In this document: positions 1 to 48,213 of the stretch, one piece after another
How positions within the stretch are numbered: the first letter of the stretch is position 1
How the letters are laid out: the number at the start of each line of letters is the position of its first letter
From: Candidatus Marinamargulisbacteria bacterium
Lineage (GTDB): Bacteria; Margulisbacteria; Marinamargulisbacteria; UBA817
DNA: 64,000 nucleotides
Direction: 5' to 3'
Assembly: GCA_049889215.1 (NCBI GenBank)
Contig: JBMHDV010000020.1
Location: 13,279-77,278, forward strand
Made by a program: the position numbers and the translations under genes
The notes under the pieces: model-generated
Told to the model about the DNA's origin: nothing
The model's input: the letters and a program-made list of their open reading frames with translations, nothing else
Database searches by the model: none

Positions 1-981
1 ATAAAATGCACCTTTCGGATCATTAATCTCAATTCCTGGGATGGCTTGCAATGTTGTTACCATTAATTTACGGCGAGCATCAAACGTTTGCCGCATATCA
101 TCTAAAACTTTCTGGTCCATTGTAAATGCTTCGATGGCTGCATATTGTGCAATGGATGTTGGATTTGATGTCGTATGTGATTGTAAACGAGCAACGGCTG
201 AGGCAATGGCTTCTGGCGCCGCAAAATAACCTACTCGGTATCCTGTCATTGCATAGGATTTTGACACACCATTGACTAAAATCGTGCGATTTTTAATCGC
301 TTCAGACAAACTAGGCGTTGATACGTGCTGACCATCATAAACCAACTTATCGTAAATCTCATCTGAAATAACCCAAAGATTCTGATCAACCGCCCACTCT
401 GCAATCGCACGTAATTCAGCCTCGGTATAAACAGAGCCGGTTGGGTTGGATGGTGAATTAAGAACAATCGCTTTGGTTGCAGGGGTTAATGCCGCTTTTA
501 GGTCATCAACTGTAACCTTGAAATCAGCCGCAGCATCCGTCTGAACCGTTACCATGGATGCACCGGTCATTTGAATTTGCTCTGGATAACTTACCCAATA
601 CGGCGCAGGAACAATCACTTCATCGCCAGGGTTTAAAATTGCAAAAAAAACATTATGCAAACTATGCTTTGCACCACAAGATACAACAATTTGATTTGGT
701 ACATAATCCAAACCATAATCAGCCTTTAAACGCTGAACAATGGCTGATTTTAATTCTGGCAAGCCAGCGGCAGGCGTGTACTTACTTTTTCCAGATTCAA
801 TGGCGGCAATGGCGGCCTGCTTTATTGGATCTGGCGTATCAAAATCAGGTTCGCCTGCACCAAACCCAATCACGTTCTGCCCCTCTGAACGTAACCGCCC
901 AGCCAACGCCGTAATGCTCATGGTTAAGCTGGGTTCAATTCCAGAAACAATGGTGGATAATTCATTGGATGTTGTTGTCAT
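1..981 (-). CDS. class I (aspartate/aromatic-type) aminotransferase, C-terminus truncated by window edge
   Basis: Reverse-complement translation from the ATG at 981 gives MTTTSNELSTIVSGIEPSLTMSITALAGRLRSEGQNVIGFGAGEPDFDTPD...NGVSKSYAMTGYRVGY...; the GAGEPDF and SKSYAMTG(W/Y)R motifs are hallmarks of the PLP-dependent aminotransferase class I family. The frame stays open to position 1, so it was not listed in the ORF track. Confidence 0.85.
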   Translation of the reverse strand, partial: MTTTSNELSTIVSGIEPSLTMSITALAGRLRSEGQNVIGFGAGEPDFDTPDPIKQAAIAAIESGKSKYTPAAGLPELKSAIVQRLKADYGLDYVPNQIVVSCGAKHSLHNVFFAILNPGDEVIVPAPYWVSYPEQIQMTGASMVTVQTDAAADFKVTVDDLKAALTPATKAIVLNSPSNPTGSVYTEAELRAIAEWAVDQNLWVISDEIYDKLVYDGQHVSTPSLSEAIKNRTILVNGVSKSYAMTGYRVGYFAAPEAIASAVARLQSHTTSNPTSIAQYAAIEAFTMDQKVLDDMRQTFDARRKLMVTTLQAIPGIEINDPKGAFY

Positions 982-986
982 TTTTT

Positions 987-1358
987 CTACCTCACTTTTG
1001 AATGCTGACTTCGAGAAATTATTACTAAGCCAATCATAATTAATACAATGGATACATATCGATTCCATTGGACATCTTCATTTAATAAAAATTCAGAACC
1101 AACGATGATAATAACATAATTTAAACTTAAAAATGGATACATAAATGATAACTGGAACTGACTCATGCCAACGATCCATAACAGCGCTGATAACACAATA
1201 AACCCAACGCCAAAAACAACACCAGGCGATGTTAAAATAAAACGCAAGCTATCCAAGGAAAATGCCATTGAAACACCGTCCACGGATGTCTTAAGTAAAA
1301 ACTCACCAATAACGGTTAGTAAAATAGGTAGAATGATAAATAAAAATTTTTGCTTCAT
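987..1358 (-). CDS. small 4-TM SMR/DMT-family membrane protein (paired with upstream gene; ArnE/ArnF- or EbrAB-like)
   Basis: 123 aa, four hydrophobic segments, overlaps the neighbouring 116-aa paralog by 4 nt; pairs of short SMR-like proteins typically form heterodimeric transporters/flippases. Confidence 0.45.
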   Translation of the reverse strand: MKQKFLFIILPILLTVIGEFLLKTSVDGVSMAFSLDSLRFILTSPGVVFGVGFIVLSALLWIVGMSQFQLSFMYPFLSLNYVIIIVGSEFLLNEDVQWNRYVSIVLIMIGLVIISRSQHSKVR

Positions 1359-1705
1359 CCGAAAATCAACACCACTGAACTCAATAAAATAAACCCAATA
1401 CCAATCATTTTGTTGCGATCCAATGACTCACCAAAAAAGAGCCGGCCACTGACCATAATGCATGCAAAACATATCCCAAATAAAGGGTAAGCAAAACTTA
1501 AATCAAAATGAGACAACACCATTACCCATAAAAAAAAGTTGATCGCCGAAACTACCAGAGCCATCCAAAATGCCCAATGCGAAAACACCAAACGAAACCC
1601 TGCCACAAAATTATGCGATTGAAACGAGACGTTTTTAACGGCCAATTTAAAACAAATATCCATAAAAACTCGGATGGCTAATGCTAAAATCAATATGAGG
1701 TTCAT
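1355..1705 (-). CDS. small 4-TM SMR/DMT-family membrane protein (pair member)
   Basis: 116 aa, four hydrophobic helices, translationally coupled to 987..1358. Confidence 0.45.
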   Translation of the reverse strand: MNLILILALAIRVFMDICFKLAVKNVSFQSHNFVAGFRLVFSHWAFWMALVVSAINFFLWVMVLSHFDLSFAYPLFGICFACIMVSGRLFFGESLDRNKMIGIGFILLSSVVLIFG

Positions 1706-1739
1706 GCCAGGTCAACTGTACTGGGATTTAAGAAATAAA

Positions 1740-2027
1740 TCAAGCCGAATTGTCTTCATCTTGAGTGTCTGCATTTTTTTTATCGTAAGCATCTTGCAAC
1801 TCTTGCTCGAGTTCACTACGTTTGTATCGATAAATCAGCTCTTTTTGAGCGTCAACCGCCACATCATCCTGCATGGAGGTTTGATGATCACTAAACGCCT
1901 GGTTGGTGCGTTCAAGTTCAGCTTTCATCTTATTTAACCGAAATTGGTATTTTCGGTATTCAACCACCATCATGCCAATAAAGGATATAATCACCACAAT
2001 GCAAAAAATAAAGGTACTTACGGCCAT
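1740..2027 (-). CDS. hypothetical membrane-anchored coiled-coil protein (FtsB/DivIC-like topology)
   Basis: 95 aa; N-terminal TM helix (VSTFIFCIVVIISFIGMMVV) followed by a charged heptad-like region and an acidic tail. Assignment by topology only. Confidence 0.35.
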   Translation of the reverse strand: MAVSTFIFCIVVIISFIGMMVVEYRKYQFRLNKMKAELERTNQAFSDHQTSMQDDVAVDAQKELIYRYKRSELEQELQDAYDKKNADTQDEDNSA

Positions 2028-2053
2028 AATATTAGTGTAACAAACGCAGCAAC

Positions 2054-5000
2054 TTATGTACCAATACTTAACGATCCACTGACATGGGAAACGGACATTG
2101 ATGATGTTCGCTCATATTCAAAGTTTCGAGCATACTTCGCATAGCTTCTTAAAAAGTCCGCCCACTCATACGCACTTAATTCTTTTTCCAACTTCTGAAC
2201 TTTTAATGCTTTTAACATTTCTTGACGATAGGCCATTTGGAAGTTTCTTGGTCGCGTAGCATGTTCAAGCACCCTCTTTATTGATGGAACATTGTTTTTA
2301 CTAGTGAATTTTAATAATTGCTCACGTTGATTATGAGACATAAGGGTCTCGCACTTTAAAGAGAATTGGGAAAGTCCGTTTGGCGATTTAATTATCGTTT
2401 TAATAACGCCCTCCATCAGCTTTAACGATTTAGCAGAGGTCGAATGTGACGCCATAGAAACAAACATATGCGCAAATAATGCACTGTTCTTTGCAGGGTT
2501 ACAAGCACCGATCAATTTTTCCCACCGTGTATGATGAGCACGGGCTGAATATGAGGTAGATTTTTCCTTAAATCGATAAAAAAGCCCTTGCCAAGACCCT
2601 TTTTTAAAGTAGTGGGCTAACTCAGCATAAAACATATCTTTTTCACGAGACGATAACTGCGCTGTAAATGAGTCAATTTTCGCAACCATTTTAAGTCCAT
2701 ATTCAGAATCACTTTTACGTTCTGACTTTAACAATTGGCCAATAATAAATTGAACCAAAAATGATTGTTGACTGCGTGACTGATTGGCATTATTTGAAAA
2801 AAGAAGATGTTTTAATGCCATTGCATTCGTTGTATTCAACTTAATTCCCTTAAATATAACATCCAAAAAGGACCGCAAACTCTGTTTACCAATCAATGAC
2901 TTTGTTTCAAAATAACTATCCACCTGTAATATATTTTGATGTTGATTCATAAACCCATCTCGAAAGCCTTGCAACACATCTTTTTGCAATTGGGTCAGTT
3001 CTTTTGATTGGAAAGAATTACCCAAAATAAACGTCATCACAGGCTCATCATTGCGGAAAAGCCCTGCCATTCGAGTATGATTAACCGCCTTTAGGTGTCG
3101 AAAAAACTTTCGTTGAAAATCTGGCTGAGTCGGGTCTTTTACAGCAATATCATACATCTTATGCCCAAGTGCATGATTATCATTCGACCCAATGCACTTA
3201 TCAAGCAATTGAAATAATTGTTGCTGACCATTGGGTTGCTGCAATCCTGCCATCACCGTTGCGTCAAAACGACTCGGGTCATCCTTAACTAATTTATTAA
3301 GGTTACTCATGTCTAAATCATCAAACTTTACCACATCTAAATCATCATCATGTGTGACTTGACGCTTTAATCCTTTAATAAACGTATCCCCATATGCTAG
3401 CCCTCTAGGTAGTTGTGCCAAATAATCTTGAATCGCCGTTTGGCCAATAAAGCGCTTTAATTTGTAAAACTGACAAAATGGGTTTTCTTTAGTTGACGTA
3501 TAATGAAGCAACAATAATACGGTTTCCTTTTGACTCGAATCCAAATGAATAGAATGATCCAGCAATTCATTAATAAAAGAAAGCGTCACTTTTTGACATT
3601 CTGGCGTTGATGCATGACGCGACACAGTTTGATACAACGGCTTTAAAACATCCAACATTCGAGACGCACTTGCCAATTGATGATGTCCAACAAACTGGGT
3701 AAATTGCTGAACCATACTAACATAAGCGGCCTGTTGTTGCCCCTTAGGAATCAATGAAAACTGCGTTAAAATTTCTGACACAGGACGATAATCATGATGG
3801 GTTTCCCTTAAAACTGAACTGGCAACCAATGACTGAACACGGGCCCCCATTTGCTGCTGAGCAACAATATTTTTTTCTGTGTTGGTATCAGCTTTAAAAA
3901 ATGACGCATCGATAGGTAAAAACGTATCCTCAAATAATTGAGAATAGTCATTGGACATCGCATGGTTAAAAACTTCGTGGATCAAATCTGTATTTTCTTT
4001 TAACCAATTCGATAACTCCCAATGACGCATACTCGGCATCTCTGCTGAAGAGATATCGTTGAACAAATTAAATTTTGATTTAACTTGATCTTTAAACATC
4101 TTCTTTCGCTCATCTTCCTCCTTAACAACACCATCTTGCCCTGGCTCATTCCCCAAAGAGACCTTTAAAAACTTGGTAAATTCAGCCAACTTATCCTTTA
4201 ATTCCTCTGCTTGAATATGAGTTTCATTTCGACGTATCCGTTGGGATGTCGCTGCAATATCAAATTGAGTTGTCATGGATGGGTTATTATGAACAAACTG
4301 ATGCAACGCTACAGAATCTGCTTGGATCATCTTCTTCAATTGATGCTTATTTGTATCCTGATAATTGGCACCGCCGACTCGATATGGATCACTGTAAACC
4401 AAACCAAATGGATCATGGTCCTTAAAATAAAATAGCTCAAGTTGTGCATGTTCAAGGGAATCTCTTTTATTGGTTTGTTCCAATCCTTGTGGATCTTGAG
4501 AGTCAGAATTCGCCAAAGGCTCAATAATTGAAGACGCTTCCGCCACAGATTGAGAGCTGCTCTGTCCAGGCTGTTCATCATTTAAAGATGGAAAAGAAAC
4601 CGATGAAACCGGCTCATTCACTTCATTGGAATGAGTATTCACCTGCGATGGAGAAGACACCATGCGATGATCCTGAGTTGATACCGGCATATCAAGTGAA
4701 TCATGTGAACTTGGAGATGTAGGTCCTGGTGGAGTTAAACCATCATCACCTTGCAAAGGATTTGGTTGCGGCTGGCTATTTTGGTTTGAACTGAATACCC
4801 CCTCATTAACACTCACCTCATTATGCTCAGCTTCCTGGACAGTTATTTCCGGCCCTTCCTCTCGATTTGGATTAAACCCACCCTCTTCAATCGTCATTGT
4901 GTTAAAGACACCTGGCTCAACAGTTATTCCCGGCCCTTCCTCTCGATTTGGATTAAATCCACCCTCTTCAATCGTCATTGTGTTAAAGACACCTGGCTCA

Positions 5001-8000
5001 ACAGTTATTCCCGGCCCTTCCTCTCGATTTAGATTAAATCTACCCTCTTCAATCGTCATTGTGTTAAAGGCACCTTCTTGAACTGATTCAGACAAATGAT
5101 CCACCATGGGACGCTTCGGCAGCTGTGTTCGAAACCGTTCCGTTTGAATAAGGGTCCGACGTTCGGTTGGCGATAATGATTTATAGGTGTGATCTGTATA
5201 ACCAAATAAATAAAAAATGGCTTTTTCTAGTTCCGGTTGTGCAAATGGTTGATCGACAGAGTTAGAAAGCGCATGATTGATGGTCGTAAACACATCACGC
5301 TTGTCGTCTTGACTTAAATTTGAAAAAAATCGCTGACCAGCTGTATCATCTTGAATTAACACTAAATTTAAAAACCGACATTGATCGTCAAACGACATGG
5401 ATTTATACAGTTTTGGCAAAACAGAACCATCAATCAACCAATTGGTTAATGATGCCAGTGGTGTTACATACTGCGTTAACGCTGATTTCATCTTTTTATT
5501 TTCAGCATTAACCAGCGCATCCATGACATTAACAGCGAGATCCGGTTGGAACTCCAACATCTCTGGCAAGAAACTTAATTGCGCATCAATATCCAACATC
5601 TGAGCAGCTACCGAAGAGTCAGTAGCATCACTTACTTCTATCCCTGAGTTAGTGGCACCCGTTGTTATTCCAGCCACCGACTGACTTGAATTCAAGTCGT
5701 CGTCGGATGCGTCTTTCACCGAAACATCTGGGTTACCTTGTGAATTCGTCGACGGCTGGAAATGACTTTCTCGTGAAAACATAAAGTTGTCCAATAATCG
5801 TGCAGGAACTGTCGCTAAAATATCACGCACTTGTTTTCGATCATTCGTTGTATGAGCCTCATTTAAAATTGCAACAACAACTGGGCCAACCGTTTGTCTA
5901 ATCGCATCAATATCAACCGTCCCCCACGCCAACTGGTGCCAATCGATTTCTTTTAATTTAGTATACAGATCCTTTGACGGCATTGGTTTGCCCCAAAGCA
6001 CCAATTGAACCTCATCTGAATCAGTTTGAACATTCATTGTAGTAGGATCATTTAACTGATCCACAATCAGACTATAGTTCTTATATTGATCAATCGGACG
6101 CTTCTCTGGGGATGAGCGTTTATTTTCACTTGATGATAAGACAGCTTTAAACTCCGAATTTAAATACACACCATGCCGCTGAAAATCCTGTGGAGTTAAC
6201 GCGCTTAAATGAGGCTTTAATCGCTGCTTAAACTGTTTGGCCAAGGATGAATAACCATCTTCCAATGACATTACAAACTGCGCAAGGCCAACCAAACGAG
6301 CCTTTTGTTCTTGCTTATTGGGCTGCTGATCCACCGCTGCCAGTGTTGCATTAAACCGATCAATCAGACGTGACCGATATTGATACCGCCACCCCAATTG
6401 CCGACTCAACGTTGTTGGCGAAAAGGGGCCTGAACCCAATGTGTGGACGGCTGTTTTTCGATCGTACTTTAACGCCTCATTCAACGATTTTGCCATGGTT
6501 TTTGACCGTTCAGGGGACGATAACCAATCATGCATAAATGTTGCCGCAGGGTCTGTCTTTGAACTAAAAAACTCCATCCCGTGCAACAACCGTCGTGCAG
6601 CCTTACCATTGCCCATCTGAAATGCTAAATCAATGATCCCATCACTCCCATTTAACATCACATCCATTTGCTGAGCTTTTGTTAAACTTAACGATCGAAC
6701 CAACGCATAAATTGATTTAGCGCCCCCTTGATTCACAGCCAATAAACGCTTTGCAAAATCCTGGGTTTGTTGTTTAACTTCATCACGTTCACTGATGGAA
6801 TGACTAAGTGCATCTTTAAAAAAGGAGACAATTTCTTCATGACGCTTCCCTTGATGATGGGACATTCGGGTAAATAACTGTGCTAAATTTTGATGCACTC
6901 GAATATCATTTGTTTTTAAGGTTTCCTGCAGGTATGCCAATGACTTACGTAATTGAATATCGTCTTGCTTGTTATCCGCTGCTTTAAATGGATTTAGGTG
7001 AACCACCGTTGCTGCAGTTGCATAAACAGCAAAATGTTGAATATTTTGAGACAACTTACTTAACGGTGCCATTTGAGGATTCAGCATTCGATGAAAAAAT
7101 CGTGACAATTTACTACTGCTTTGTGAATAGTCATCGACTTGATTGGAAATCTTGACCATTTCATCCAACGAAGCAGAGATCCGTTGCAGCAAATCCAATT
7201 GATCCATCTGAACAATCACGTCGTTGTTTTGGCGAGAAAGGTTGATTTTATGCAAGGCTTGAATATCCGCCGAGAGCGTCTTCATTTCCTTAGTAAATTG
7301 GCCAGACAAACGCTCACCACCATACCGAACCACCTGCTTATTTAAACGCCGAATGGCTTGCCAGACGCTGGCTGTTTGTTCAAGCTGGCCCAATGACCCA
7401 GAAAACTCTTTTGTTGACTTGCGAGAGAATACAGATGCAATCGATCGTCCAAGATTTTGGATAAAATTCAACTGAACCGGCTGTGCACCAACCGTTGAGG
7501 GATCCGTTAAATAAGCAGAAACCACAGCCAACGAACGCTGCGCCTTTACGCCATCATTGGTCATAATGGCCTTTGCCAAGCCATCCGCTTGATTGGCCAC
7601 CAATTGGCCATCCGAACGCAAATGGAGCTTGCCCTGATTTTGAGCTGACTTGGACCAGGAATCCACCAGGTTTCTAACTGCCTTTGAAAAGAAACCATCA
7701 AAGTACTTAATTTTAGTCACTAAATCAGCATTCACTTTTTGCTTTGCCTTTTTAATATTAGAAACATACATCATGCGTTCCACCGTAGAACCAGCAACCA
7801 TTTTATTGGCATAGTCTCCTTCAGCTGAGGCCATCACCGCGGCCTGTTTTGCAGCTAGGTCACTGCGTCGAACCGCAGATGCACCCACCCGCAACAGATC
7901 CTCAAAGAAGTTTAAGGCATTATAAAAAACGTTATCCAAAAACTTGGTTGACCAATCGCGTGTCTTTGCAGCATCCACCTGCAACGACGACGACCGTTGT

Positions 8001-11000
8001 TGGGCCCGATAATTTGAATACTGGCTTAATCCCTTCACAACGCCAACTTTAATAAATTGTTGAAATGTCTCAAATCGTTCTTTTTGAATGGCATTAAATA
8101 CACCAACCACTTCACCAGCCAGCGAATATCGATTGCCAAGGTTCTTCATCATCAACGATTTTTTTAAACTCATTAATGAACGTAAACCGCCCGCATATCC
8201 AAGGGACGTGGTCACCGCGCCCAAGTCATCCGCAATTGCCTGATACGCGTCAGCTACCGACTGACCGGCTTTTAACATGGCATCCCATTTGGCAAAAAGT
8301 TGCTTTAACAGCATATGCTGATACGCATTATGCAACCAATTGACACTTTGATATCCCAAACCTATGGCATTTCCTACCCCCGTATTGTTGTAAGCTGAAT
8401 CAAAAATCATATTCTCTTGCTGTGTTGAAAATGCCAAATAATTGGATTCAAATTCACTAGCCGCAGCTAGTGACTGACCCGAATACGGCATGGATGTTCG
8501 GCCAGCCGCCTGTTTTTTTGATGATGAATCAACATCTAATAATTGGTCAGACAATTTATTTTCAACCACACCACCACGAAAATTAATGTAACTTAACATG
8601 ATCCCTTGGAACATGTTGGCAAAGGCTTTCACCATAATAATATCAAGCAATCCAACCGATGCTTTAGCAAATAACTTTGCACCAAAATACAACCCAAAAA
8701 AGATACCTTCATACGTGACTCGCTCAACGCGACGCATGGCATTAAACTTACTATTATTTAACGATACCGCCGTTGACTGCATGGATTGAATCCGTCCCAA
8801 CTCTTCGACGTCATGGGTAACTTCACGTTCAATCACTTGAATTAAATTGCCAAAACCATCCCCGGAAACTTGGCCATCTCCACGCACTGATTTAGTCAAC
8901 GAAGAAATGTAGTTTTTGATGGCCATCATGCGCATAACCGTCAAAATAGATGTCATGCCCAACTCAATAATTTGAGTTCGCTTTGCATTAAACGCGTTAT
9001 AATCCACCGACTGTAAATGATTGGAAAACAACGATAACGACTGACCTTGCTTTAATGGCGGAATCTCAGCTGCCTCTTTTAATAGGTTGAAAGCACCTTT
9101 CCGATAATCCGCCAACGGCTGGTTAGAAAACCGGGAATCTGAAAACAAACCACCAGTTGAGGCACTGACTGTTGGTGCATATGCCGCTGTGTATCGGGCA
9201 TTGGATAAATGTTGAAGATACCCTTCCTTCTGAAAATTATTGGTCCGTATGTATTCCTCAGAATAAGGGTTATTACCAAACCAATTGTAATGCAATGCAT
9301 ACACTTCAAAAATATTAATCGTGGAATCAATTAACTGGCCAAACTTTGGCAGTGCCATCATTGGGGCAATACCGACAGATTTAAAGATGGAGTCTGTAAA
9401 TCGCTCAACACGTGTTTTATCAACATTCACATTATGATTGGTGGCTGACTCGTAATGCGATAATAAATGATCATACAATTGCACATCAACGCCCACCAAA
9501 CCAAAACTTGTTTCGAATATCTTTTGTAAATTTGATGCCACTTTTGCTTTTTGTTGGTTTCCAACCTGAGCACCTAAGGTTGCAATGGTATCGGTAATTA
9601 TCGTAACCAATTGATACATAAACCGTAAGCGTTCCTGAAACAACCGAATATGGTCCTTATGCTGACCAATATTGTACTGGTTTAGCATCACTCGTTTTGA
9701 GCTGGTATCCATTGATAAAAAAGGATCCTTCAAATCAATGCCCAATGCACGCCCTTGTGAAATCAGGCCAGTATTATCTGCCCCATTCAAGGTTTGCTGG
9801 TATCCTGTCATTAAACGTAAAATTCGACTCGAAAAATCCATCGAAAATTGCGCTGAAGGCGCCGATGATTGACCAGAACTTGCGGTTTGAAATAATGGTA
9901 ATTGTTGAGTCGAAGATGCACCAGCGGCTGTTGTTAAACGCTTTGGCACCACATAATGATTACCATTAAAATCTCTTATGTGACCGGCATGAACCAATTC
10001 ATTAAATAATCCTTGCCGATCCGCAGGCGCCGATAAGAAAGATAGGTCATTAACTGTAATTGGGGTTGTGCGAGGATGGGTTTTTAATAATGCATCAACA
10101 TCTTGTTGTTGGGCCAAATACTTGGATGACAATGGCAGTTTATAAATAACGGATTGTTGTGTCAGCTGATTACTGGATTGAACAGTGTCACCCAATTCTT
10201 GCTTCATTTGATCCTTAATATCATCGGGTGAACCATCAATAAGCGGATCTGTTCCCGATTGACCTTGGTTACGCAAGCGTTGAATAATCGCATCTCGATC
10301 TGGCGCAAACACATCACCCAATATTTGCGACGAGAAATGACCTAAAATACCCATTATATTCGTGGCTACATTGTGGCCAGTCGAACCGGGTAAAAACGCC
10401 ATAATCAATGGCTTTAGACCCGTCGAAACCAATGTCCCCACACTTTCACCCATAAAGTCAGCCAAAGGATTATCTTTGCCTGAAATATTCACAGTAAAGG
10501 TGTCAAACATTAACTCAATCGCGTCTTTTGTATGGGATGCAATAATCTCTTCATCAGACATCGACGAATCGGTTTGGAACCGATTTTCAAACATTGATCC
10601 ATCACTAAAGTCAGGAATAAATAAATCAAAAAATTCATCTGGGATCACTGTTCCCATAATGGTTCCTAAATCTTCGATTAATGACCCACCCATGGCAGAT
10701 AAATCATCCAAAAACGAATCGGTTTTTAAGCCCAACTCAGCGGGTGAATGAATGGTTGTTCCCGTTGATGTGTATGAAAACACATCCTCAACATTATAGG
10801 TTGCCTGATACTCCGCCAATGGCATCAGTTGACCAGACACCAACGATGGATCCAATACCATGGTCTGACCATCCATTGGAATGGTCATATACACATGCCC
10901 CTCACGTTGCCCATCAATCGTAACATATGCGGCATGCGACTGTGGCTTCAAGTCAGTTAAACCAGCCTCGTTAAAGGCCGCCAATAATAGGCTATGCTCC

Positions 11001-14000
11001 AAATGAACAAGGTCTTCACAATCCCCACTCAAGCGCTTAGCAACATCACCAACCGGTGCCCAGTCATCCTCAGCACCATCAGAAATATAGGTGGTTTTTG
11101 CTGCCATAAACGAATGAATCGTTTGAATAATTTCAACTGGATCAGTTGGAACCCCAGCGGGAAAACAGGCATCATGAAGCAACGCTTGAACCGCCGGATC
11201 AGACGGATTAATGTAAGTATGTGCATTGGTGTAATCCACAACGGATCTTGGCATAACATCTGTTGGAACCGTTTGAGTGGCACTGGTAGCAAAACCTGTT
11301 GAATCAAGCCCAGGCATGTTGGTTTGAAACGTATCCTCAACCTGACGCTCCAATTGATTAAACGCACCCACCTCTGCAGACATTTTTTGATGCAAGTCCT
11401 GTTCAAGATGATACCCACGCCACGATTCTGCCAAACTTAAAATGGACGATGCCATGGTTAAAAAGATACCCACAACATGGGTCAGTGGCGTTGGCGTTAA
11501 CATTAATAACGCACCAACAATGCTTGTCCAGGTGGATGTAATATCAAGGCCTCGCAAATACGGGTCTGCCAACTTCACCAAATTTAAACGCAATTTATGC
11601 ATTTCATTGATTCGTTCTGTCATTTGAACCGTACTAGAATGCACGGAAGACAACTGCCGTTCAGCAATCCCAATGTGTGATTCCATTAAATTGGATTGCC
11701 AATCGCCATAATGCGATGACGACGTTGCATTACCGTCCAGCTTTTTAGATAAACTTTCAAACAGCTTACTATACGCTGAAGTTAGCGTCATAAAGACGCG
11801 CCGCGACATGGTCATTAACATAAAGTTTTTACGCGCAACATTAATTAAATCAACATTGGCAATTTGAAACCCTGCACCTGCCTCATCAATGGCCGCTGCA
11901 GCTTGAGACAAGTGCAACGTCTTGCCCGACTGTTTATTCACCATCATGCGCTGCAATTGACGAAACTGCTCGTCTGTTAGTTTTCCTTTTACACTAGCAG
12001 GAACTGCCGCAGTTAAATCGATGGCATGCGATTGAATTTCACTATTGTTATCAATATAACCTAAGCCATTGGGGTTATCATCACTTTTTGGTCCTAACAT
12101 TTGCTTTAAGCGTGTTGTTGTTAGGGTATTCTCGTGATTCTTAATATAGTCGTATCGAATACCATAATGTGAACGAGCCGGATAATAGTTTAATATTCCA
12201 GCATCCACGAGTGCAGTTAATACACCCGCTCGATCCGCGGCTGGAATGGTTGAAAATGTTTCAGCTGTAATTGGCGTGTTTTGCTGTAACACAGTTGATA
12301 ATGCAGCCGAAATTTGAGTTTGGTATTTTTTGTAGTTGCTTGTCTCAGGCAAATCAAAGGTCGGGTTTGACGACTGAAACGGAAGTAAATCCGAGGTTGT
12401 TAAATAACTTTTTTGACCATACGTGTTATGGGTAGACTTAATATCTATTGTGCTAGATAATGCATCAAAATCAATCGAAACTGCATCATCTGACTCTCGT
12501 GCCATTAGGTCCATCACACCATGCAGTTGTTCAGACGTATTAAATCGTTGCATTGAAACAACCCCCACACCGCGCTCAGAAAGCGATTTATGGTCCTGCA
12601 ACTGACGGCGAATATTGGCCTCTAATGCGGCCTTATCTAATGTTGTATTCGGGTAACGGGTCAAAAACTGCTCAAACTGTTCTTGGATCAACGCCTTCAT
12701 TCGAATGGCTTCGTCATCCGTTGGATAAAAATCTTTTAAACCTGGCGCTTGATCAACTTGCGTCGCTGTAAATAACGGCACGGTTGCTAAATCAACGCCC
12801 GCCGAAATCATCCCATGCTCATCAATCACACCATTGGCCATCAAAGCTGACCACAAATGCATGGATGTGATTTGCGTGTTATCCTGCGCTTGATCCCACA
12901 ACATAGACGAAAAGTAAGATGGCATCACATTCGCACCAAACTGAGGAACATCAATCATGGCCAGCTGCATGCTCTTGCGGTTATCGCTTAACATATCGTA
13001 GTAATCTTGCTGCAATTGTGCTTTAAATCGTTCACCACGAATTTGATATTCGTTACCTAAAAATGCATCACCCAACTGTTTATCGACTTTGGCGAATTGC
13101 TCATCAACTTTTGATAATGCTGTTTGATAACGTGATTCATTGGTCTTATCGATGGTGGTTTGGAACATATCCATTAATGAGTTAATGGACTGGTTCAGTC
13201 CACTGGTATACCCATTAAATGACTGAACAATTTTTTGACGCTGTTTTGCAGACGACGATGCTGAAGATGCCCCTTCACCCAATTTTGCAGCGATGCTCGA
13301 TGTCATGTCAGACACACTAAATACAGCCGTTAGAATAGCAGATATTTTCGTTTGCAATGTAAACAATCGCGCCAAATCTTGTTGAAGCTTTTGTTGGTTT
13401 ATTCGTACAAATAAGCTATTGGTATCTGAATTTTTCTGATACCCGCCAATAACATACGGCGACACCGTCTGAAATGCACCTTGTGCATGCCCTGCATAAA
13501 TGGGTGTATTCGGCGCGGTTAAACCATTTAGAACCTGCTCAGATAATGTTTCAAACTCACTAAGCGCCTTGGCCAATGGTTCATTTTGAACATCGGTTGC
13601 TGCTAGTGTCGAAAAATAAAAAGCGCGTTGATTCAATAAATCAACCAGCCGTTGATAATGTGAACCAGACCCTCGCAACTCAAAATACGAGGCCATCTTT
13701 GCCATAATGGCAGGGTCTTTCAAGGCTTCTATTTGAATAACACCAGCAGAATTAATGACACCTGATGTTTCTAACACAAAAAATAAATCATTTTTAGACA
13801 CACGATGCGGGGTTTGGCTAACCGAGTGATAAGTCACCAGAGCCTTGCCATTCAATTGAGCATGAGAACGAATCATGCCCGCTGCCTCTAGTGCATTGTA
13901 AACCACCATTTGAGATACACTTAACTGCGAAAAATCAGACGGCTGCAATGGCTGATTAAAGTTTAAACTATGATTTAAGCGTTCATTAATGGCCAAGCGA

Positions 14001-31500: not shown

Positions 31501-34500
31501 TTTCTTTAAAAACGGTTGTAACTTTGCGTTTAGGGCTTTATTTTCTGGTGTTGATACGGTTACTTTATCGTCCTTACTCGGCAATGCCGGTGCATCACCT
31601 TCAGTTGTTGTTACTTGCCCATCCTGACTCGGCAATTCCGGAGCACCACCCTCAGTTGTTGTTACTTGCCCATCCTGACTCGACGATGGAAGTAGTTTCA
31701 CAGCCAAGTTCATCTTCTCTTCATCAGAAAATTTATCAAAGTTTTGTTCCACGGCGTTCTGCAAATTGGTAGGGTTACCACCAACCAATTCGTTAAATGA
31801 AGCCGAATCCAAACGTGCCAACGTACCCAATACTCGCAAGTCCTTGTCATTTAAATTACCTGCTTCAAGTTTTTCACCCATTTGTTTTTTGATAGTGCCT
31901 TTTAATTGTTTTAAAGGTTCATCCATTTTTGCATGCCCTAAAATATCAGAATCCATTTGGCTTGAATGGGACAAGACCTCACATAACACAGCCTGGGCTT
32001 GCAATGGTGTGGTGGTCTTTTCTTTTTGAAACGTTTGAATGGTATGTAACATATCTTGCAAGTTAGCCAAGTCTTGTGAATGCTCATCAACACCTGATTG
32101 CTGTTCCTGCTTAAACTCCTCAATCCCCACTCGAATCATCATTTTAAGGTCCTGTATCGCAGTATTTAGTGTTTTTTCATCTTCCAATGGAGATGGATTG
32201 TTGTCTGTTTTTTCAAAAAGATGACGAAACTCTTGCCGAGCAGTTGCAACCGCAACACGGTCCGATCCAACGGCAGAGTTTTTATGCACTGTTTGAATAA
32301 TATCCAGAGGAACATCAATCCCTTCCCGCGACACTTGCGTCATATCCGCTAAAAACTCAGGATGGTTGTTAATATGCCCACCAACCATTTTAGAAAATTC
32401 TGTATCTTTACCTTCTGCTTGTCGCAATAACCCTTGCATCAACTGATGCGCAATGGGACGTTCCTTATTAAATTTACCCGAAGGCAATGTCTCATGGATC
32501 ATATCTAACACCATCAGTGGGTTTTTTACATCGTTTTTCTGCATCGTTTGAACAGCTTGTGCAAAATCTTGTAAAAAATCTTTAGATAAAGTTCCTTCAT
32601 CTTGTTTAGATTCTATTAATGATTGCAATTCCTTCATGGCCTGAAACTCATCCAACGGTTTCCCCTGCTCTGATTTCATTGCAGCCACCACAGCTTTACA
32701 GCTATTATAATTTGGTTTTTTTGGTGCGGCTGTTGTTGCTGGTGTTGTTGCTGGTGTTGGTGATGACACTTCAGTTTTAGGTGGCACAGCATCACCTTTT
32801 AGGGTTGGGAACTGGGCATCAAGTTCTTTTAAATGTTCTTTTCTTTTGCGAAGTTCGTTCGTTAAATTCTTTAATTGTCTTTTTGCTAGACGCAAGGATC
32901 GTCCTTTGCTTTTGTTCTTATTGTTTATGTTCTTTCCTCTGGTTTCTGTACCGACTTGGGGTGTCAATTGGCGTATGATTCCTTCTTCGTTCTGTATTTT
33001 AGATTCTAAATGTTCAATCATTCTTGTTATCTGACCACGTTTAAATTGCGCATCTGATAACTGCTCACTTCCAGACGACGGAGTCACTTGTTGTAAAGAC
33101 TCAGACTCAAACTTTGCTTCTGTTCGTCTAAGTTCATTTTCTTTTTGAGCAATTACATCTGTTTCCCCTCTTAGCACTGTCTGTGCTTTCGCTAAGCCTT
33201 TTCTTGCTACATCAACCTTATAATTTAAAGACCGTAACGCAGTCTTATTCTCACCAATCTGTTGGTTAAAGCCGTCTATTTGTTGCTCAAGACCTTGTAT
33301 TTTCTTTTCTAAGCCTTCAATGCCTGGGTGTGGTTCTTTAGGTGCGGATGCCAAGTTATTAATCTCGGCTTCTGTTTGTTTAATTTCTTTGTCCAAATCC
33401 CTGGCACTATTTAATAAGGTTTCAAACGCTTGTCTTTGTTCTACCTTATCATCTCCACTCAAATCGATAACTTGACCATTTACCGTACCATCATTATATG
33501 TTTCATCATAAGTTATATCCTCAAGTTTGGATGGCACTGGATAAACACCAACTTGTTTTCCAATGTCTGCAAGTGTAGATTTTAAAAGTGAAACTTTGGC
33601 CCCCAATTCGTTTTTCTTTTCTGTAAACTGTGCCGTCTTCAATCCTTCAATCTCAGCTTTTAAGGTAGAAATTAACTTACCAGCAATTGTTTTCTTCCCT
33701 TCAAGCTTAGCGGTTTCTGCTTTATTGTCATCCACCTTCGCCTGTGCTGCACCCAGGTCTGATTTCGCATCATTCACAGCCTGTTGTTTTGATGCAGCTG
33801 CTGTTTTTGAGGCCTTAATATCACGTTTCAATTGCTCCAATACATTTGTTTGGCGCTCATTCAATCCTGTTTTCTGTGACTCTTTTTGCGGATCCGTTTG
33901 TGTAACTTCTTTCGGGGGAGTCATATTTGTTGATTGTTCCACTTTGGTATCTGGTTTTTGTTGACCAGCCTTGCTGTCGGGATTAATATTACCAACTGGT
34001 TTTCCACCACCAACACCGTCCACTCGATTATCGCCTTTGGACGTGTCCACTTTCGCATTGGTATCAATTTGATCTTGCTTGACAGGCAATGCTTGAGCGG
34101 AACTTAACCCCTTCACCACGGTCTCAATCAAGTTATAGATATGTTGTTTATCCACTGGTTTCACATTGTTATCAGGATCGGTTTGTGTTACTTGGCCAGT
34201 GGTTTCTTTGGCTGTATTTTTTAAAAATTGGTCCCCAGCACTTTTGGTCACCTTTAAACTAGCACTCAACTGCGATGCCTTAATTTCAGGGATGTCTTTA
34301 TCTTTAGCAATATCAATACCGGCAGCACTTAAAAAGTCCCGAACAACACCCGCAGCCTCACTGCCCTTGGCAGCATTTGCAGACTCTATAATCCGCTTTA
34401 CAATAGCATCCGATTCATCAAAATTAATAGATTCTGGTTTACCTGTAAGCGCCTCGTCCACTGGAACATGACTTCCGGTATCCTCCAAACCAGCAAGACG

Positions 34501-37500
34501 TGCAACGGTTGATAGCAACCCTGCTGCAACTTTACTCTCCAACGCCTCACGGGTATTTCCACCACCAGCACCACCACCACCACCAGCACCGCCACTGGAT
34601 GCCTGTTGAATATTTAACTGCTGCGTTGCATGCGAACCAGTCGCAACAGCTGGGCCTGTGCCAGCACCGCCACCCGCTTTTTCTAAAGGCGAATCACCTT
34701 TTCCATTTGGTATCGGTTGACTAGCAGGGCTGACTGCCCCTGAATTACTGCTTGAAGTTGTTGTGGTACCAACCGTACTGTTGGCTGTCGTTCCGCCTTG
34801 GTTACCCGCAGTAGTTACAGTGCCAGTTACACTGTCACCACCAGTATCGCCACCACCACCACCAGCTTCAGACCCTTGGATAGCCCCCGTTGAGGTTAAC
34901 CCTGTCGCACCTGAACTTACGGCACCACCTGTCATTGCCACCCCATTAGGAGTAGAGTTACCACCAACCTTTTGTTGACTTGCAGACATTTCACCTTCAA
35001 CGCCCCCTTTACCAACTCCTAGTGTAGCTGCTGGGGTTCCTTTGCCAGCGGCTGCCGCAACTTTTTCAGCACCACTTTTTGCGTTATGTTCACCAGGTGT
35101 AACTGCCCCACCGCCAGATCCATTCTGACCTTTAGCACCTGATGGTATGGCGATGCCGTTCTGTGCCGCTTTCTCCTCTGCTTTCGCCTTAGCCATCGAT
35201 TCTTTATCTTTTTTAACAGTATCAGCAAGCGCCTTATTTGATTTTTTCAATTCATTTAAACGCTCTCCGGTTGCAGCCATCTCTTTTTCTTTTTTTTCTA
35301 ATTGTTGTTCCAAGTCACTGATATCGACGTCTAATTGAAAACTTTCGTCATCCAACTGATCCATTTCTTCACTGCTTAGTTGTGCCCCCCCCCCGCTTTC
35401 CTCAAGTTCTTTAACAGCTTTCTCGTTCTCTTTACGTTCATTAACCGCTTCTTCAAGTGCTTTTGTTCGATTTAAAATATCTTTTTTCTTATTTTTTATC
35501 TTTTTTTCTAGTTTTTCATCTACCGGCCCACCAGCATCAAGTACGGCCATAATACCAGCCGCTTTATCCATTTGCTCTTTTACAAGCTTTCCTGTTTCTT
35601 TAATCACTTCATCCACTGTCATGCCTCTATCAATCATCCCCTTCATTTCAGGAGGCAGTTTTCGTTTAATCTTCATGACTTCACTATCATTCAAGGCTTT
35701 ATTCATTTCTTGAAATACTTGATTTGAAGCGACACGTGAAAATCGTATTGCAGATCCACCACTCTTTTTAATTTGAGGATTCCTATTCAACTCCATAATA
35801 ATATCCTGAATCTGATTTTTTGATTCAGCATCCACTCTACTTAAAAAGCCACCCTTACCCGTAACAGTATCTTCAATTAATTTTGCTGCCTTGGAATCTG
35901 GTTTAACCCCATACATCTTAATGAGTTCCTTAACCACTATTGTTTTTTGTCTTTCTTTAGTCCCGGCTTTTGCATCCATTAATAAATGCTGACCAGCTTG
36001 CAATTCCATTGCAAGCTCAGCTGCATCACCCGCTTTTTTTCTTTCTTTTTTTCTATCAAATTCTGGCCGTTGAGCAATATAATCTTTTAATTGATTTTTA
36101 TCTTCTTCAAGGGCTTTTCGAATATCTTCCTCAGCTGTCTTTGATTCTCTCAGTTCTTTTTGCTTCTCCAGCATTTCTGGTGTTGGCTGACTGCCCGCGT
36201 CCTGCTTTTTATCTATTTCAGCCTGCCTAGCTTTCTTTTCTGCAATCTTCGCTTTTAAGGCGTCCACCTCTGAGCCTTGAAGTTTTAATTGCTCGTCAAT
36301 TTCTCCAGCTTTCGCCTGTCCCTGTTTTAACCGCTGCTTATCATCCCTAAATTTATGCTGTGCAACTTGTCGCTTCTTGACTAACTCCTTTAATGCAGCA
36401 GAATTACCGGCACCTTTACCCGCAACGGCAGACACCGCCGCTTCTGGTCGTGACTCTGTTGCACCACCACCGCCAGCACTACCCAACGCATCTAAATTTC
36501 TTAATAATTCATTCTCACTGGCCTCTGCTGCAGCATCAGATCCAACCTCGGTACTTTCATTCGGTGGCACCGTTAAGTCAACACCCAATTTTCCACCCAG
36601 CTCATGAATTCGTTGCTTCTTCTCTTTATCATCTCCGGCATCCCTTAATGCCGTCTCTAAGCTTTCTTGCAAGGTATTGGTATCACCACCACTCAAAGAT
36701 TGCATCACATCTGTAATGGCCTTTTCTTCTTTCTTATTTAATACGCCAACACCCATTTTCTTTTGAGGATCGCCTGTGGCATACAATTCTGTCATGCTTG
36801 CCATCAAATTTCTTTTTTCATTAGCATCAGATCCAGCAGCCCCATTTTTTATGTCATTGTTTAAATCAGACAACTGCCGGGTTAACCCCGTTTTATTATT
36901 TTTCAATTTATGATTCAAGCGTGAACGCATGTCAGGCAACCCTCTTGCCCGTAAATTGGCCACCTGGCGTGCCGCATCAGGGCTGGTTAATAATTGTCGA
37001 AAATTTTCTTGGGTAGCCACGTTAAAGTCCTGCAAATTCTCTGATTCTTCCGGGCTACCACTATCCAACATGGCCCGAACCACTTTTGCACCACCGGCTT
37101 GGCTAACTTTATCTAAAAATCCCAATAATTTACTTGGGTCACTTTCTTCCATAAAAACGTCCATCACATTTTCCATATTGGCCGCTGCATTATCGGGCAT
37201 ATTGGCAATCACACCAGCCGCTAGACCTTGCATTTCAGGGCTATCATCGGACATTAATTCCTGCAACATCTCAGTAGCAATGCTGGGGTCTAAACCATTG
37301 GAATTTATCTGAGCACGAGCATTAATATCACTTAATACCTTGGCAACCAACTTGGGGTTTTTTGCCAAAAATTCACGCCGTTTTTTTGCAGACTCACCAG
37401 AGTCATCTTCATCAGCATGTTGGGCAAACAAGGCCATGGCCACGGCATTTTCCTTAACACGCTCCGCACGTTCTTGGGCAATCTCTTTGCTTGTCACAGC

Positions 37501-47850: not shown

Positions 47851-47853
47851 TGC

Positions 47854-48114: not shown

Positions 48115-48213
48115 TAAATACATTAAAAAAAATAAATACAATTTAGATTGGCTCGCCTTCGATAACTGTTATGAAGTACAATTAAAGTACGAATTTATTT
48201 GAAGGAGGCAGAA

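What the first reader, a model, noticed from the sequence alone, without database searches (positions are those of the whole stretch)
2054..15436. Second giant ORF (4460 aa), paralogous in architecture to the 7066-aa protein
This ORF has the same layout as the larger one. A TGc-like core sits at about residue 279 and a second one about 1200 residues later. Large helical regions follow, and an 81-bp in-frame tandem repeat (4840..5075) gives three copies of a 27-aa EEG-FN-NREEGPGITVEPGVFNTMTI unit. Two giant paralogs on one strand, 10 kb apart, suggest an expanding family; together they account for ~54% of the window.
Basis: seen in the sequence. Interest (0 to 1): 0.55.

Follow-up and report, generated by a model that had tools for sequence, protein, structure and literature searches.

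The report
Giant twin-protease protein of Margulisbacteria
This is a real, conserved 4460-residue gene found so far only in Margulisbacteria; it carries two LapG-like cysteine-protease domains, is an ancient relative of the neighbouring 7066-residue gene, and has no known function.

Summary
Window 2054..15436 (-) is one 4460-codon ORF. It has GDCED cores at Cys279 and Cys1473 and an 81-bp x 2.9 in-frame repeat at 4839..5075.

The gene is functional. dN/dS against a 97%-identical relative is 0.19. Single-frame orthologues of at least 4330 to 4380 aa exist in diverged relatives (33-46% identity).

Both GDCED regions are transglutaminase-like (TGc) cysteine-protease domains. All five aligned modules keep the Cys-His-Asp triad. 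AlphaFold models match LapG best.

Profile comparison shows A and B (7066 aa) are collinear homologues over A 30-2604 / B 28-2909 (E 6.6e-63). Their C-terminal parts are unrelated.

The pair is old, not expanding. Two distant metagenomic relatives keep the order B, conserved small genes, a variable Cys-rich membrane gene, then A.

An exhaustive search of 1.84 billion proteins found 85 relatives. Every named one is from Margulisbacteria. None were found in the viral-contig or plasmid collections.

The C-terminal ~1760 residues, including the repeat, evolve fast. The closest strain has the same three repeat units, homogenised to a different variant.

Function is inferred only. My best guess is an envelope-associated giant protease scaffold with a variable partner-contacting arm. 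It is a new variant of a known kind and moderately interesting.

The parts
2054..15436 (-). Giant gene A, 4460 aa, ATG start
   Evidence: ORF list and translation. dN/dS is 0.19 against L001. Single-frame orthologues: P0003 at 4380 aa, L006 open for 4341 aa to the contig end, and L005 open for 3257 aa from the contig edge to its stop.
7625..15349 (-). Conserved core (residues 30-2604), shared with giant gene B
   Evidence: hhalign gives A 30-2604 ~ B 28-2909, E 6.6e-63. Identity to orthologues is 33-46%. dN/dS is 0.05-0.09 over residues 401-2700.
14282..14854 (-). TGc module 1 (residues 195-385; Cys279, with aligned His and Asp)
   Evidence: Pfam Transglut_core, E 3.1e-5, above the cut-off. 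Triad alignment. AlphaFold pLDDT is about 85-93 in the core, and the best Foldseek match is LapG 4fgq, E 1.9e-4, TM 0.58.
12944..13390 (-). Conserved block, residues 683-831 (only the last ~20 residues of my first model reach it)
   Evidence: Matches B 530-677 and the B-type proteins P0027, P0032, P0034 and P0039. Pfam and NCBIfam give only sub-threshold hits: Annexin_2, DUF948 and LIC11966.
11420..11521 (-). Conserved hydrophobic helical hairpin, residues 1306-1339
   Evidence: Kyte-Doolittle 19-residue mean is 1.6-1.76. It is nearly invariant between A and P0002. AlphaFold models two helices here. The equivalent hydrophobic stretch in the B family is at 1571-1589.
10712..11269 (-). TGc module 2 (residues 1390-1575; Cys1473, with aligned His and Asp)
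   Evidence: 31% identical to module 1, E 4e-10. Triad conserved. AlphaFold pLDDT is above 90. Foldseek matches 3isr and LapG 4fgq/4fgo (E 3e-5 to 9e-5; TM for LapG 0.57-0.58).
8594..8704 (-). Second conserved hydrophobic segment, residues 2245-2281
   Evidence: Hydropathy 1.5-1.66. It contains the most conserved peptide, NMFQGIM, which the locus scan chose as its pattern. It lies in the block that aligns with B 2496-2741, and the B family has a hydrophobic segment at 2513-2531.
2057..7336 (-). Fast-evolving C-terminal arm, residues 2701-4460
   Evidence: No similarity to B. No hit for residues 3300-4460 in the 5.8-billion-protein search. P0003 matches only up to A 3070. UBA817 matches the end at 25-28%. 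dN/dS is 0.24, 0.58 and 0.17 across its three parts.
4337..5086 (-). Acidic, Ser/Pro/Gln-rich low-complexity linker, residues 3451-3700
   Evidence: Composition scan. dN/dS 0.58. Absent from P0003 and not matched in UBA817.
4839..5075 (-). 81-bp in-frame tandem repeat: three 27-aa units
   Evidence: TRF. L001 has an array of 3.1 copies built from a different unit variant.
25525..46725 (-). Giant gene B, 7066 aa, the ancient paralogue. TGc modules at 45601-46143 and 41011-41643
   Evidence: B-type orthologues are 5076-7287 aa.
22505..25509 (-). Four small genes (301, 118, 287 and 293 aa) conserved between B and A in relatives
   Evidence: tblastn against L006 and L007 gives 38-45% identity in the same order. 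No Pfam family.
15559..21565 (-). Variable cassette just upstream of A: four overlapping genes for multi-pass membrane proteins, three of them Cys-rich
   Evidence: No Pfam family. Cys content is 2.4-4.4% in three of the four. L006 and L007 have non-homologous Cys-rich membrane genes at the same position.

Best explanation
Gene A encodes a functional giant protein. It belongs to a family found so far only in Margulisbacteria.

Shown:
- It has a ~2600-residue conserved core that it shares with its ancient neighbour and paralogue B.
- The core holds two LapG-like transglutaminase-fold cysteine-protease domains with complete Cys-His-Asp triads.
- The core also holds two conserved hydrophobic helical segments.
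- After the core comes a ~1760-residue C-terminal arm that evolves fast and differs between lineages. It contains an acidic low-complexity linker with the 3 x 27-aa repeat.

Inferred:
- The hydrophobic segments hold the protein at a membrane.
- The two TGc domains are active peptidases (or the related transamidases). They cut protein substrates, possibly the giant protein itself.
- The variable arm contacts a changing outside partner, such as a host, prey or neighbour cell surface, or a phage.

On this reading A and B are an envelope-associated protease platform for cell-surface or cell-cell interaction. They are not housekeeping enzymes.
For: The gene is real and under selection.
- dN/dS is 0.19 overall and 0.05-0.09 in the core.
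- Full-length single-frame orthologues exist.
- The start agrees with orthologue P0013.

The TGc domains look catalytic.
- Pfam hit above the cut-off.
- Triad conserved in 5 of 5 modules.
- High-confidence AlphaFold cores whose best PDB matches are cysteine proteases: 3isr, LapG, vasohibin, CPR-C4 and PeiP/PeiW.

Hydrophobic segments are conserved at equivalent positions in the A and B families.

The core-plus-variable-arm pattern is seen.

The repeat has been homogenised to different units in two strains about 97% identical.

The neighbouring Cys-rich membrane-protein cassette is replaced by non-homologous genes in relatives. That fits a fast-evolving surface locus.

A and B are Cys-poor (0.25% and 0.16%) and strongly acidic.

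The B...A synteny is conserved.

The family is restricted: 85 hits in 1.84 billion proteins, and every named hit is from Margulisbacteria.

Margulisbacteria include an intracellular animal symbiont (PMC6784892). They have been reported as enriched in uncharacterised huge proteins (PMC11573180; bioRxiv 10.1101/2023.11.21.568195).
Against: - There is no N-terminal signal peptide-like hydrophobic segment in the sequence, and no secretion-system gene in the window. Export is therefore unsupported.
- The hydrophobic segments are only borderline for transmembrane helices (hydropathy 1.3-1.76). The second one contains Lys and Asp. They could be buried helices instead.
- No activity, substrate or cleavage site is known. 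LapG-type [TPA]AA[GV] motifs occur in A but are not conserved in orthologues.
- About 2700 residues (1761-4460) have neither a structural model nor any family match.
- The source organism's lifestyle is unknown. The related contigs carry marine-sounding names only.
Confidence: 0.4

Rival explanations
1. A is an exported toxin or effector. It would be secreted, insert its hydrophobic hairpins into a target (host or prey) membrane, and use a TGc domain either to cut itself or to modify target proteins. The variable C-terminus would bind a receptor. This is the working logic of the large clostridial toxins and MARTX toxins.
For: - The layout runs protease domain, hydrophobic helical hairpin, second protease domain, then a variable C-terminal arm.
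- The protein is Cys-poor and acidic.
- The C-terminus and the neighbouring surface cassette evolve fast.
- The neighbouring 771-aa gene has an OTU-like Cys loop, a domain usually aimed at eukaryotic ubiquitin (only Pfam Otubain at E 0.11).
- The phylum includes an intracellular symbiont (PMC6784892).
Against: - Pfam reported no toxin, Peptidase_C80, pore-forming or receptor-binding-repeat family for A or B.
- The window has no secretion system or export signal.
- The pair is ancient and syntenic, with a core under strong purifying selection. That looks more like a core cellular component than an arms-race toxin.
- The OTU lead failed every statistical test I ran.
Confidence: 0.2
2. A is an internal structural or housekeeping giant: a membrane-tethered cytoplasmic scaffold, for example for cell shape, division or envelope maintenance. 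Its TGc domains would process endogenous substrates or have become binding modules.
For: - No signal peptide-like segment.
- Hairpin-type hydrophobic segments would keep both flanks on the same side of the membrane, here the cytoplasm.
- Conservation and synteny are ancient across the class.
- The gene sits in a chromosomal region next to the ribosomal-protein/SecY/RpoA genes and flagellar genes.
- Purifying selection on the core is strong.
Against: - The C-terminal 40% turns over between lineages, and the repeat linker has dN/dS 0.58. That is unusual for an internal scaffold.
- The catalytic triads are strictly kept in all modules, which argues against purely structural domains.
Confidence: 0.2
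3. The long ORF is an artefact: a misassembly, a chimaera, or a decaying pseudogene read as one frame.
For: In the closely related contig L001 the same region is called as five genes of 1249, 218, 1516, 586 and 808 aa.
Against: - The breaks in L001 are four 1-nt deletions, three of them in homopolymer runs, plus a few short indels near the repeat region and the 3' end. This is what uncorrected errors in a Pilon-polished assembly would look like.
- L001 is collinear with the window over 23.7 kb at 96.7% identity.
- Independent assemblies give uninterrupted orthologues of 4380, >4341 and >3257 aa.
- dN/dS is 0.19.
Confidence: 0.01

Closest known systems
LapG / BTLCP (bacterial transglutaminase-like cysteine proteinase; Pfam Peptidase_C93, NCBIfam CystProtLapG)
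   Same: Both TGc modules of A match it best at the fold level (TM 0.55-0.58 normalised to LapG, E 8e-5 to 2e-4). The Cys-His-Asp order is the same. LapG also acts in the biology of a giant surface protein, LapA (established knowledge).
   Different: LapG is a free-standing periplasmic enzyme of about 200 aa with a signal peptide. It works with LapD and cuts a conserved di-alanine site in LapA. Here the domain occurs twice inside a 4460-aa protein. A gives no C93 or LapG HMM hit, and B gives 15-19 bits against cut-offs of 27 and 320. No LapD, LapA, ABC-transporter or RTX-repeat family was found. No di-alanine motif is conserved.
Transglutaminase-like superfamily (Pfam PF01841 Transglut_core)
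   Same: Module 1 of A passes the Pfam gathering score, as does module 2 of B. The triad and the papain-like fold are present.
   Different: The subtype is very divergent. An exhaustive phmmer search with A 661-1860 recovered 85 proteins in 1.84 billion rather than the generic TGc family. Pfam does not detect module 2 of A at all.
Other TGc-fold proteases: 3isr putative cysteine protease, vasohibin, CPR-C4, and the pseudomurein endoisopeptidases PeiW/PeiP
   Same: All appear as Foldseek matches to both modules. All are peptide or isopeptide hydrolases.
   Different: Matches are at the fold level only (9-22% identity). None of them is part of a giant protein.
Uncharacterised giant proteins of Margulisbacteria, Omnitrophota and other uncultured phyla
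   Same: The size class is the same, and so is the phylum reported as enriched in proteins over 5000 aa without functional assignment (PMC11573180; bioRxiv 10.1101/2023.11.21.568195).
   Different: Neither paper's main text contains the word 'transglutaminase'. I found no published description of a double-TGc architecture or of the A/B gene pair.
Large multidomain toxins with an internal cysteine protease and a hydrophobic delivery region (TcdA/TcdB, MARTX)
   Same: The resemblance is in layout only: an internal protease, hydrophobic helical segments and a variable C-terminus.
   Different: Their protease is the caspase-like C80 fold, not TGc (established knowledge). Pfam reported no toxin family for A or B, and the PDB sequence searches with A found no significant match. 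Secretion is not shown.

Membership tests
Transglutaminase-like superfamily (PF01841) | HMM score above the Pfam gathering threshold | tested here: met
   A 242-292 scores 24.6 bits against a cut-off of 23, E 3.1e-5. B 1733-1799 scores 26.3 bits. Module 2 of A is linked only through homology to module 1 (E 4e-10).
Transglutaminase-like superfamily (PF01841) | Cys, His and Asp catalytic residues in that order | tested here: met
   All are conserved in A-1, A-2, B-1, B-2 and the P0002 module.
Transglutaminase-like superfamily (PF01841) | Papain-like alpha+beta fold | tested here: met
   AlphaFold core pLDDT is 85-98. The top Foldseek matches are all TGc-fold enzymes.
Transglutaminase-like superfamily (PF01841) | Catalytic activity (peptidase or transamidase) | not testable with these tools
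   Needs a biochemical assay.
LapG / BTLCP (Peptidase_C93; NF045674) | HMM score above the curated cut-off | tested here: not met
   A gives no hit. B scores 19 bits against 27 (C93) and 15.3 bits against 320 (LapG equivalog).
LapG / BTLCP (Peptidase_C93; NF045674) | Free-standing periplasmic protein of about 200 aa with a signal peptide | tested here: not met
   The domain is embedded twice in a 4460-aa protein whose N-terminus has no hydrophobic segment.
LapG / BTLCP (Peptidase_C93; NF045674) | Partner genes (LapD receptor, LapA-type RTX adhesin with a di-alanine site, type I secretion genes) | tested here: not met
   None of these families was found in A, B or the 35 other window ORFs scanned. 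The motif is not conserved.
RTX / LapA-type giant adhesins | Calcium-binding nonapeptide repeats, tandem Ig-like or cadherin-like domains, adjacent ABC/MFP exporter | tested here: not met
   Pfam finds none in A or B. The only tandem repeat in A is the 81-bp x 2.9 array. Neighbouring genes have no transporter families.
Large clostridial / MARTX toxins | Peptidase_C80 autoprocessing domain, glycosyltransferase or other effector domains, TcdA/TcdB pore region | tested here: not met
   No such Pfam or NCBIfam hit. The PDB sequence searches with A found no significant match.
Anti-phage defence or phage proteins | Match to PADLOC or PHROG families, or presence on viral or plasmid DNA | tested here: not met
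   PADLOC gave nothing. PHROGs gave only one hit for A, E 0.0016 over 66 residues with no stretch passing on its own. No relative in viral contigs or plasmids.
Margulisbacteria giant TGc family (defined here) | Collinear homology of the ~2600-aa core, including both TGc modules and both hydrophobic segments | tested here: met
   A against B: E 6.6e-63. A-type orthologues: P0002, P0003, L003/L005, L006 and L007. B-type: P0027, P0031, P0032 and P0039.

The most novel reading that the evidence does not exclude
A and B together form an ancient, phylum-specific two-gene machine. Both would be giant, self-processing, membrane-inserting proteases, and their fast-evolving C-terminal arms would mediate attachment to, or entry into, eukaryotic host or prey cells. 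Together with the adjacent hypervariable Cys-rich membrane proteins, this would be a previously unrecognised kind of host-interaction apparatus in Margulisbacteria.
Probability: 0.12. Interest if true: 0.8.

Novelty: new variant of a known kind. Interest (0 to 1): 0.45.

Why it matters
Margulisbacteria are an uncultured sister lineage of Cyanobacteria. Marinamargulisbacteria draft genomes are small, 0.5-2.0 Mb (PMC6784892), and one member lives inside animal cells. Two published surveys note that the phylum is unusually rich in huge proteins, with no function assigned to any of them.

This work gives one such pair a concrete anatomy:
- two LapG-like protease domains with intact active sites;
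- conserved hydrophobic segments;
- a 2600-residue core shared by two ancient paralogues kept in fixed gene order;
- a rapidly changing C-terminal arm.

The two genes total 34.6 kb, which would be roughly 2% of a 1.5-Mb genome of the kind reported for this class. Keeping that much DNA under purifying selection implies an important role.

The domain boundaries and catalytic residues given here make that role testable by expression and mutagenesis. If the proteins turn out to mediate cell-cell contact, that would bear on whether planktonic Marinamargulisbacteria are host-associated.

Tried and rejected
1. A 'third, fragmented copy' between A and B. A blastn table seemed to show collinear 67-72% DNA matches between the intergenic genes and A. 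These hits came from a second record (L002) stored in the same file. Direct tblastn and blastn of 15437-25524 against A and B found nothing. Rejected.

2. The full-length 4460-aa query timed out in the homology search. A's exact sequence is not in the gene-position index.

3. LapG-type autocleavage motifs [TPA]AA[GV]: two occur in A (TAAV at 1142, TAAG at 1836), but neither is conserved in P0002 or P0003. Rejected as evidence.

4. Module duplication beyond the TGc domain. The long off-diagonal hhalign hits shrank to the TGc region alone when sub-profiles were compared: A 197-430 ~ 1393-1636.

5. C-terminal arm. No similarity to B or to the core. No hit in the 5.8-billion-protein search. No PDB sequence match.

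6. Pfam, NCBIfam, PHROGs and PADLOC on A, B and the orthologues gave nothing beyond TGc. PDB profile searches were empty.

7. OTU deubiquitinase reading of the neighbouring 771-aa gene. Only Pfam Otubain at E 0.11, and no PDB hit. It remains a motif-level lead.

9. The Foldseek search against viral structures showed only generic TGc and NlpC/P60-like matches.
Full report
**1. The observation**

The ORF list shows one open frame on the minus strand at 2054..15436. It is 4460 aa with an ATG start. A second frame lies at 25525..46725, 7066 aa, with a TTG start. Together they cover 54% of the window. I call them A and B.

GDCE motifs begin at A residues 277 and 1471 (Cys279 and Cys1473) and at B residues 273 and 1781.

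Tandem Repeats Finder reports an 81-bp unit at 4839..5075, 2.9 copies, 96% matches, no indels. It encodes three 27-aa units from residue 3454.

**2. Is it a real gene?**

The gene-position index does not hold A's exact sequence. A 198-kb ENA metagenome contig (locus L001) aligns with window 25385..1702 at 96.7% identity.

In L001 the region is called as five genes. The frame breaks include four 1-nt deletions, three of them in homopolymer runs such as AAAAA, TTTTTT and GGGGG, plus a few short indels near the repeat region and the 3' end. This looks like uncorrected error in a Pilon-polished assembly.

Using the window's frame, dN/dS between the two sequences is:

| Residues | dN/dS |
|---|---|
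| whole gene | 0.19 |
| 401-2700 | 0.05-0.09 |
| 2701-3400 | 0.24 |
| 3401-3760 | 0.58 |
| 3761-4460 | 0.17 |

Independent assemblies carry uninterrupted orthologues:
- P0003, 4380 aa, 32-34% identical over A 14-1616 and 1901-3070.
- L006, open for 4341 codons up to the contig end.
- L005, open for 3257 codons from the contig edge to a stop that aligns with A's end.
- P0002, truncated at both ends by its contig, 38-41% identical over A 688-3061.

The artefact and pseudogene readings are therefore excluded.

**3. Source organism**

RpoA from the window is 99% identical to the copy on the L001 contig. It is 75-80% identical to proteins named Candidatus Margulisiibacteriota or Margulisbacteria.

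The named A and B relatives come from Candidatus Marinamargulisbacteria and Margulisiibacteriota MAGs and from UBA817 (UBP8).

The right-hand part of the window holds SecY, Map, RpoA, S9 and TruA, and a FlgE/F/G-like gene. This is a bacterial chromosome, not a mobile element. No relative was found in viral contigs or plasmids.

**4. The two GDCED regions**

- Pfam Transglut_core hits A 242-292 above its gathering score and B 1733-1799.
- Module 2 of A is invisible to Pfam but is 31% identical to module 1 (E 4e-10).
- An alignment of the five modules (A-1, A-2, B-1, B-2, P0002) keeps the Cys of GDCED, a downstream His and an Asp in every row.
- AlphaFold models of A 1160-1760 (26-row alignment, mean pLDDT 70.5, TGc core above 90) and A 1-700 (10 rows, mean 65.8, core 85-93) both fold the modules confidently.
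- Foldseek against the PDB gives, for both modules, LapG of Legionella (TM 0.55-0.58 on LapG, E 8e-5 to 2e-4), the 3isr putative cysteine protease, vasohibins, CPR-C4 and PeiW/PeiP.

So these are transglutaminase-fold cysteine-protease domains, closest in shape to LapG. They are not LapG-family members:
- The C93 and LapG HMMs are not met.
- The domains are embedded rather than free-standing.
- No LapD, LapA or type I secretion genes were found.
- Di-alanine motifs are not conserved.

**5. Relationship of A to B**

blastp gives a collinear chain of weak hits:

| A residues | B residues |
|---|---|
| 114-370 | 117-365 |
| 683-831 | 530-677 |
| 1204-1575 | 1470-1901 |
| 2224-2470 | 2496-2741 |

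I built an A-type alignment (A, P0003, P0002, P0013, P0018) and a B-type alignment (B, P0031, P0027, P0032, P0047, P0034). hhalign joins these into one alignment: A 30-2604 to B 28-2909, probability 100%, E 6.6e-63, 2185 columns, 21% identity.

Sub-profile tests show two things:
- The internal duplication is confined to the TGc region: A 197-430 ~ 1393-1636 (E 7.8e-15), and B 235-339 ~ 1735-1853 (E 2.6e-13).
- The C-terminal parts, A 2701-4460 and B 2900-7066, are not detectably related (E 0.38).

**6. Age of the pair and the neighbourhood**

Two metagenomic loci, L006 and L007, each contain the following in order:
- the C-terminal end of a B orthologue (25-29% identity);
- homologues of window genes 24604-25509, 24255-24611, 23480-24343 and 22505-23386;
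- on the other strand, homologues of 21930-22508 and the BolA gene 21670-21942;
- one gene with no similarity to anything in the window;
- an A orthologue at 37-46% identity.

The window's counterpart of that variable gene is a four-gene overlapping set at 15559-21565. It encodes multi-pass membrane proteins, three of them Cys-rich at 2.4-4.4% Cys. The L006 (604 aa) and L007 (896 aa) genes are of the same general type but are not sequence-similar.

Downstream of A, two small four-helix membrane genes (1355-1705 and 987-1358) are conserved in L003/L005. The same gene order, with one weak SMR (Multi_Drug_Res) Pfam hit, follows the P0003 orthologue in L008.

The B...A arrangement is therefore ancient and fixed, not an ongoing expansion. 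Only four TGc modules exist in the window.

**7. Size of the family**

An exhaustive phmmer search with A 661-1860 against 1.84 billion representative proteins returned 85 hits at E <= 1e-3. They fall into these groups:
- A-type orthologues and fragments.
- B-type giants of 5076-7287 aa. IMG annotates one of them as 'predicted transglutaminase-like cysteine proteinase'.
- A class of about 1900-2340 aa with a single N-terminal TGc module of the same subtype.

These groupings rest. Generic TGc proteins were not recovered, so the subtype is isolated.

Two papers list Margulisbacteria among the phyla enriched in huge proteins, and one notes they have no functional assignment (PMC11573180; bioRxiv 10.1101/2023.11.21.568195). 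Neither main text mentions transglutaminase domains.

**8. Other features of A**

- There is no N-terminal hydrophobic signal-like segment.
- Two hydrophobic stretches are conserved in the A family: 1306-1339 (modelled as a helical hairpin) and 2245-2281. The B family has hydrophobic stretches at 1571-1589 and 2513-2531, which correspond by the A/B alignment offset. Hydropathy is borderline (1.3-1.76), so membrane insertion is an inference.
- A has 11 cysteines (0.25%), two of them catalytic, and a net charge of -98. B is similar.
- Residues 3451-3700 form an acidic Ser/Pro/Gln-rich linker that contains the repeat.
- No other Pfam, NCBIfam, PHROG, PADLOC or PDB sequence match was found for A. 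Pfam on four orthologues added nothing.

**9. The variable arm and the repeat**

The C-terminal region diverges much faster than the core:
- UBA817 matches the core at 41% but the end (A 3771-4459) at only 25-28%, and it does not match A 3430-3771 at all.
- P0003 and L006 have long C-terminal regions with no BLAST match to A's.
- A search of 5.8 billion proteins with A 3300-4460 found nothing.

The repeat is specific to the window/L001 lineage. Both strains have three units, but the units differ:
- Window: EEGGFNPNREEGPGITVEPGVFNTMTI.
- L001: EGVFNPNREEGPEITVQEPEHNNVSVN.

Each array has been homogenised toward a different flanking variant. That accounts for the local peak in mismatches and for dN/dS 0.58. 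Copy number does not vary in the one comparison possible.

**10. How it most likely works**

Shown:
- a functional giant protein;
- two protease-fold domains with intact triads;
- conserved hydrophobic helices;
- a conserved core followed by a fast-evolving arm;
- an ancient syntenic partner;
- a hypervariable Cys-rich membrane-protein neighbour.

Inferred:
- The protein sits at the cell envelope, held by the hydrophobic segments.
- The TGc domains cut protein substrates, possibly the protein itself.
- The variable arm meets a changing external partner.

I give this 0.4. The rivals are an exported toxin-like effector (0.2) and an internal membrane-tethered scaffold (0.2). An artefact is excluded. 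The remainder is something not yet imagined.

No export signal, secretion system, substrate or activity is known, and 2700 residues have no model. These are the main weaknesses.

**11. Verdict**

This is an undescribed architecture built on a known catalytic fold, so I class it as a new variant of a known kind. Interest is moderate (0.45). It gives a testable anatomy to one of the unexplained giant proteins of an uncultured phylum, but nothing here shows a new mechanism.

Noticed in passing
window 15559-21565 (-); L006 6166-7980; L007 6619-9309: Four overlapping co-directional genes (431, 451, 771 and 363 aa) encode multi-pass membrane proteins with no Pfam family. Three of them are Cys-rich (2.4-4.4% Cys). 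Relatives carry non-homologous Cys-rich membrane genes at the same position, immediately upstream of the A orthologue. This is a hypervariable cassette.
   Followed up: partly
window 16614-18929 (-), C-terminal ~250 residues: The 771-aa protein has an OTU-like cysteine loop (PGDGNCAFSAA) and a GQHWQCL motif near its end. Together they resemble a deubiquitinase catalytic pair. The only statistical support is Pfam Otubain at E 0.11, and there is no PDB sequence hit.
   Followed up: partly
window 22505-25509 (-): Four small genes (301, 118, 287 and 293 aa) directly downstream of B are conserved in the same order in L006 and L007 at 38-45% identity. They have no family assignment and may work with B.
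   Followed up: partly
window 47590-48468 (+): Three paralogous small genes of 86, 86 and 89 aa. The first two form a 264-bp tandem duplication at 96% identity. They open a plus-strand cluster of unknown genes that runs to a FlgE/F/G-like gene (52581-53465) and one further small gene (53465-53815). This is probably a flagellar cluster, divergent from the B operon.
   Followed up: partly
L001 13696, 14324, 18865, 20632 and neighbours: The ENA contig agincourt1_1__contig_29386_pilon has 1-nt deletions, mostly in homopolymer runs, that split the A orthologue into five called genes. It also carries single-base indels across the intergenic genes, so gene calls there differ from the window.
   Followed up: yes
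window 987-1705 (-); L003 10472-11199; L008 13754-14442: Two small four-helix membrane genes follow A and are conserved in L003/L005 (62-68% identity). The same gene order follows the P0003 orthologue in L008, where one of the genes has a weak SMR (Multi_Drug_Res) Pfam hit.
   Followed up: partly
window ~26000-40000: There is a strongly negative AT skew on the plus strand (-0.1 to -0.27) across the part of B that encodes its C-terminal two thirds. It marks a compositional domain inside B. A 254-aa plus-strand ORF at 37340-38104 lies inside B and is probably spurious.
   Followed up: no
L009 10001-16198; L010 2385-8582: A class of about 1900-2340 aa with a single N-terminal TGc module of the same subtype. 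P0042, for example, occurs in JGI samples 3300031999 and 3300032401, surrounded by unknown genes.
   Followed up: partly
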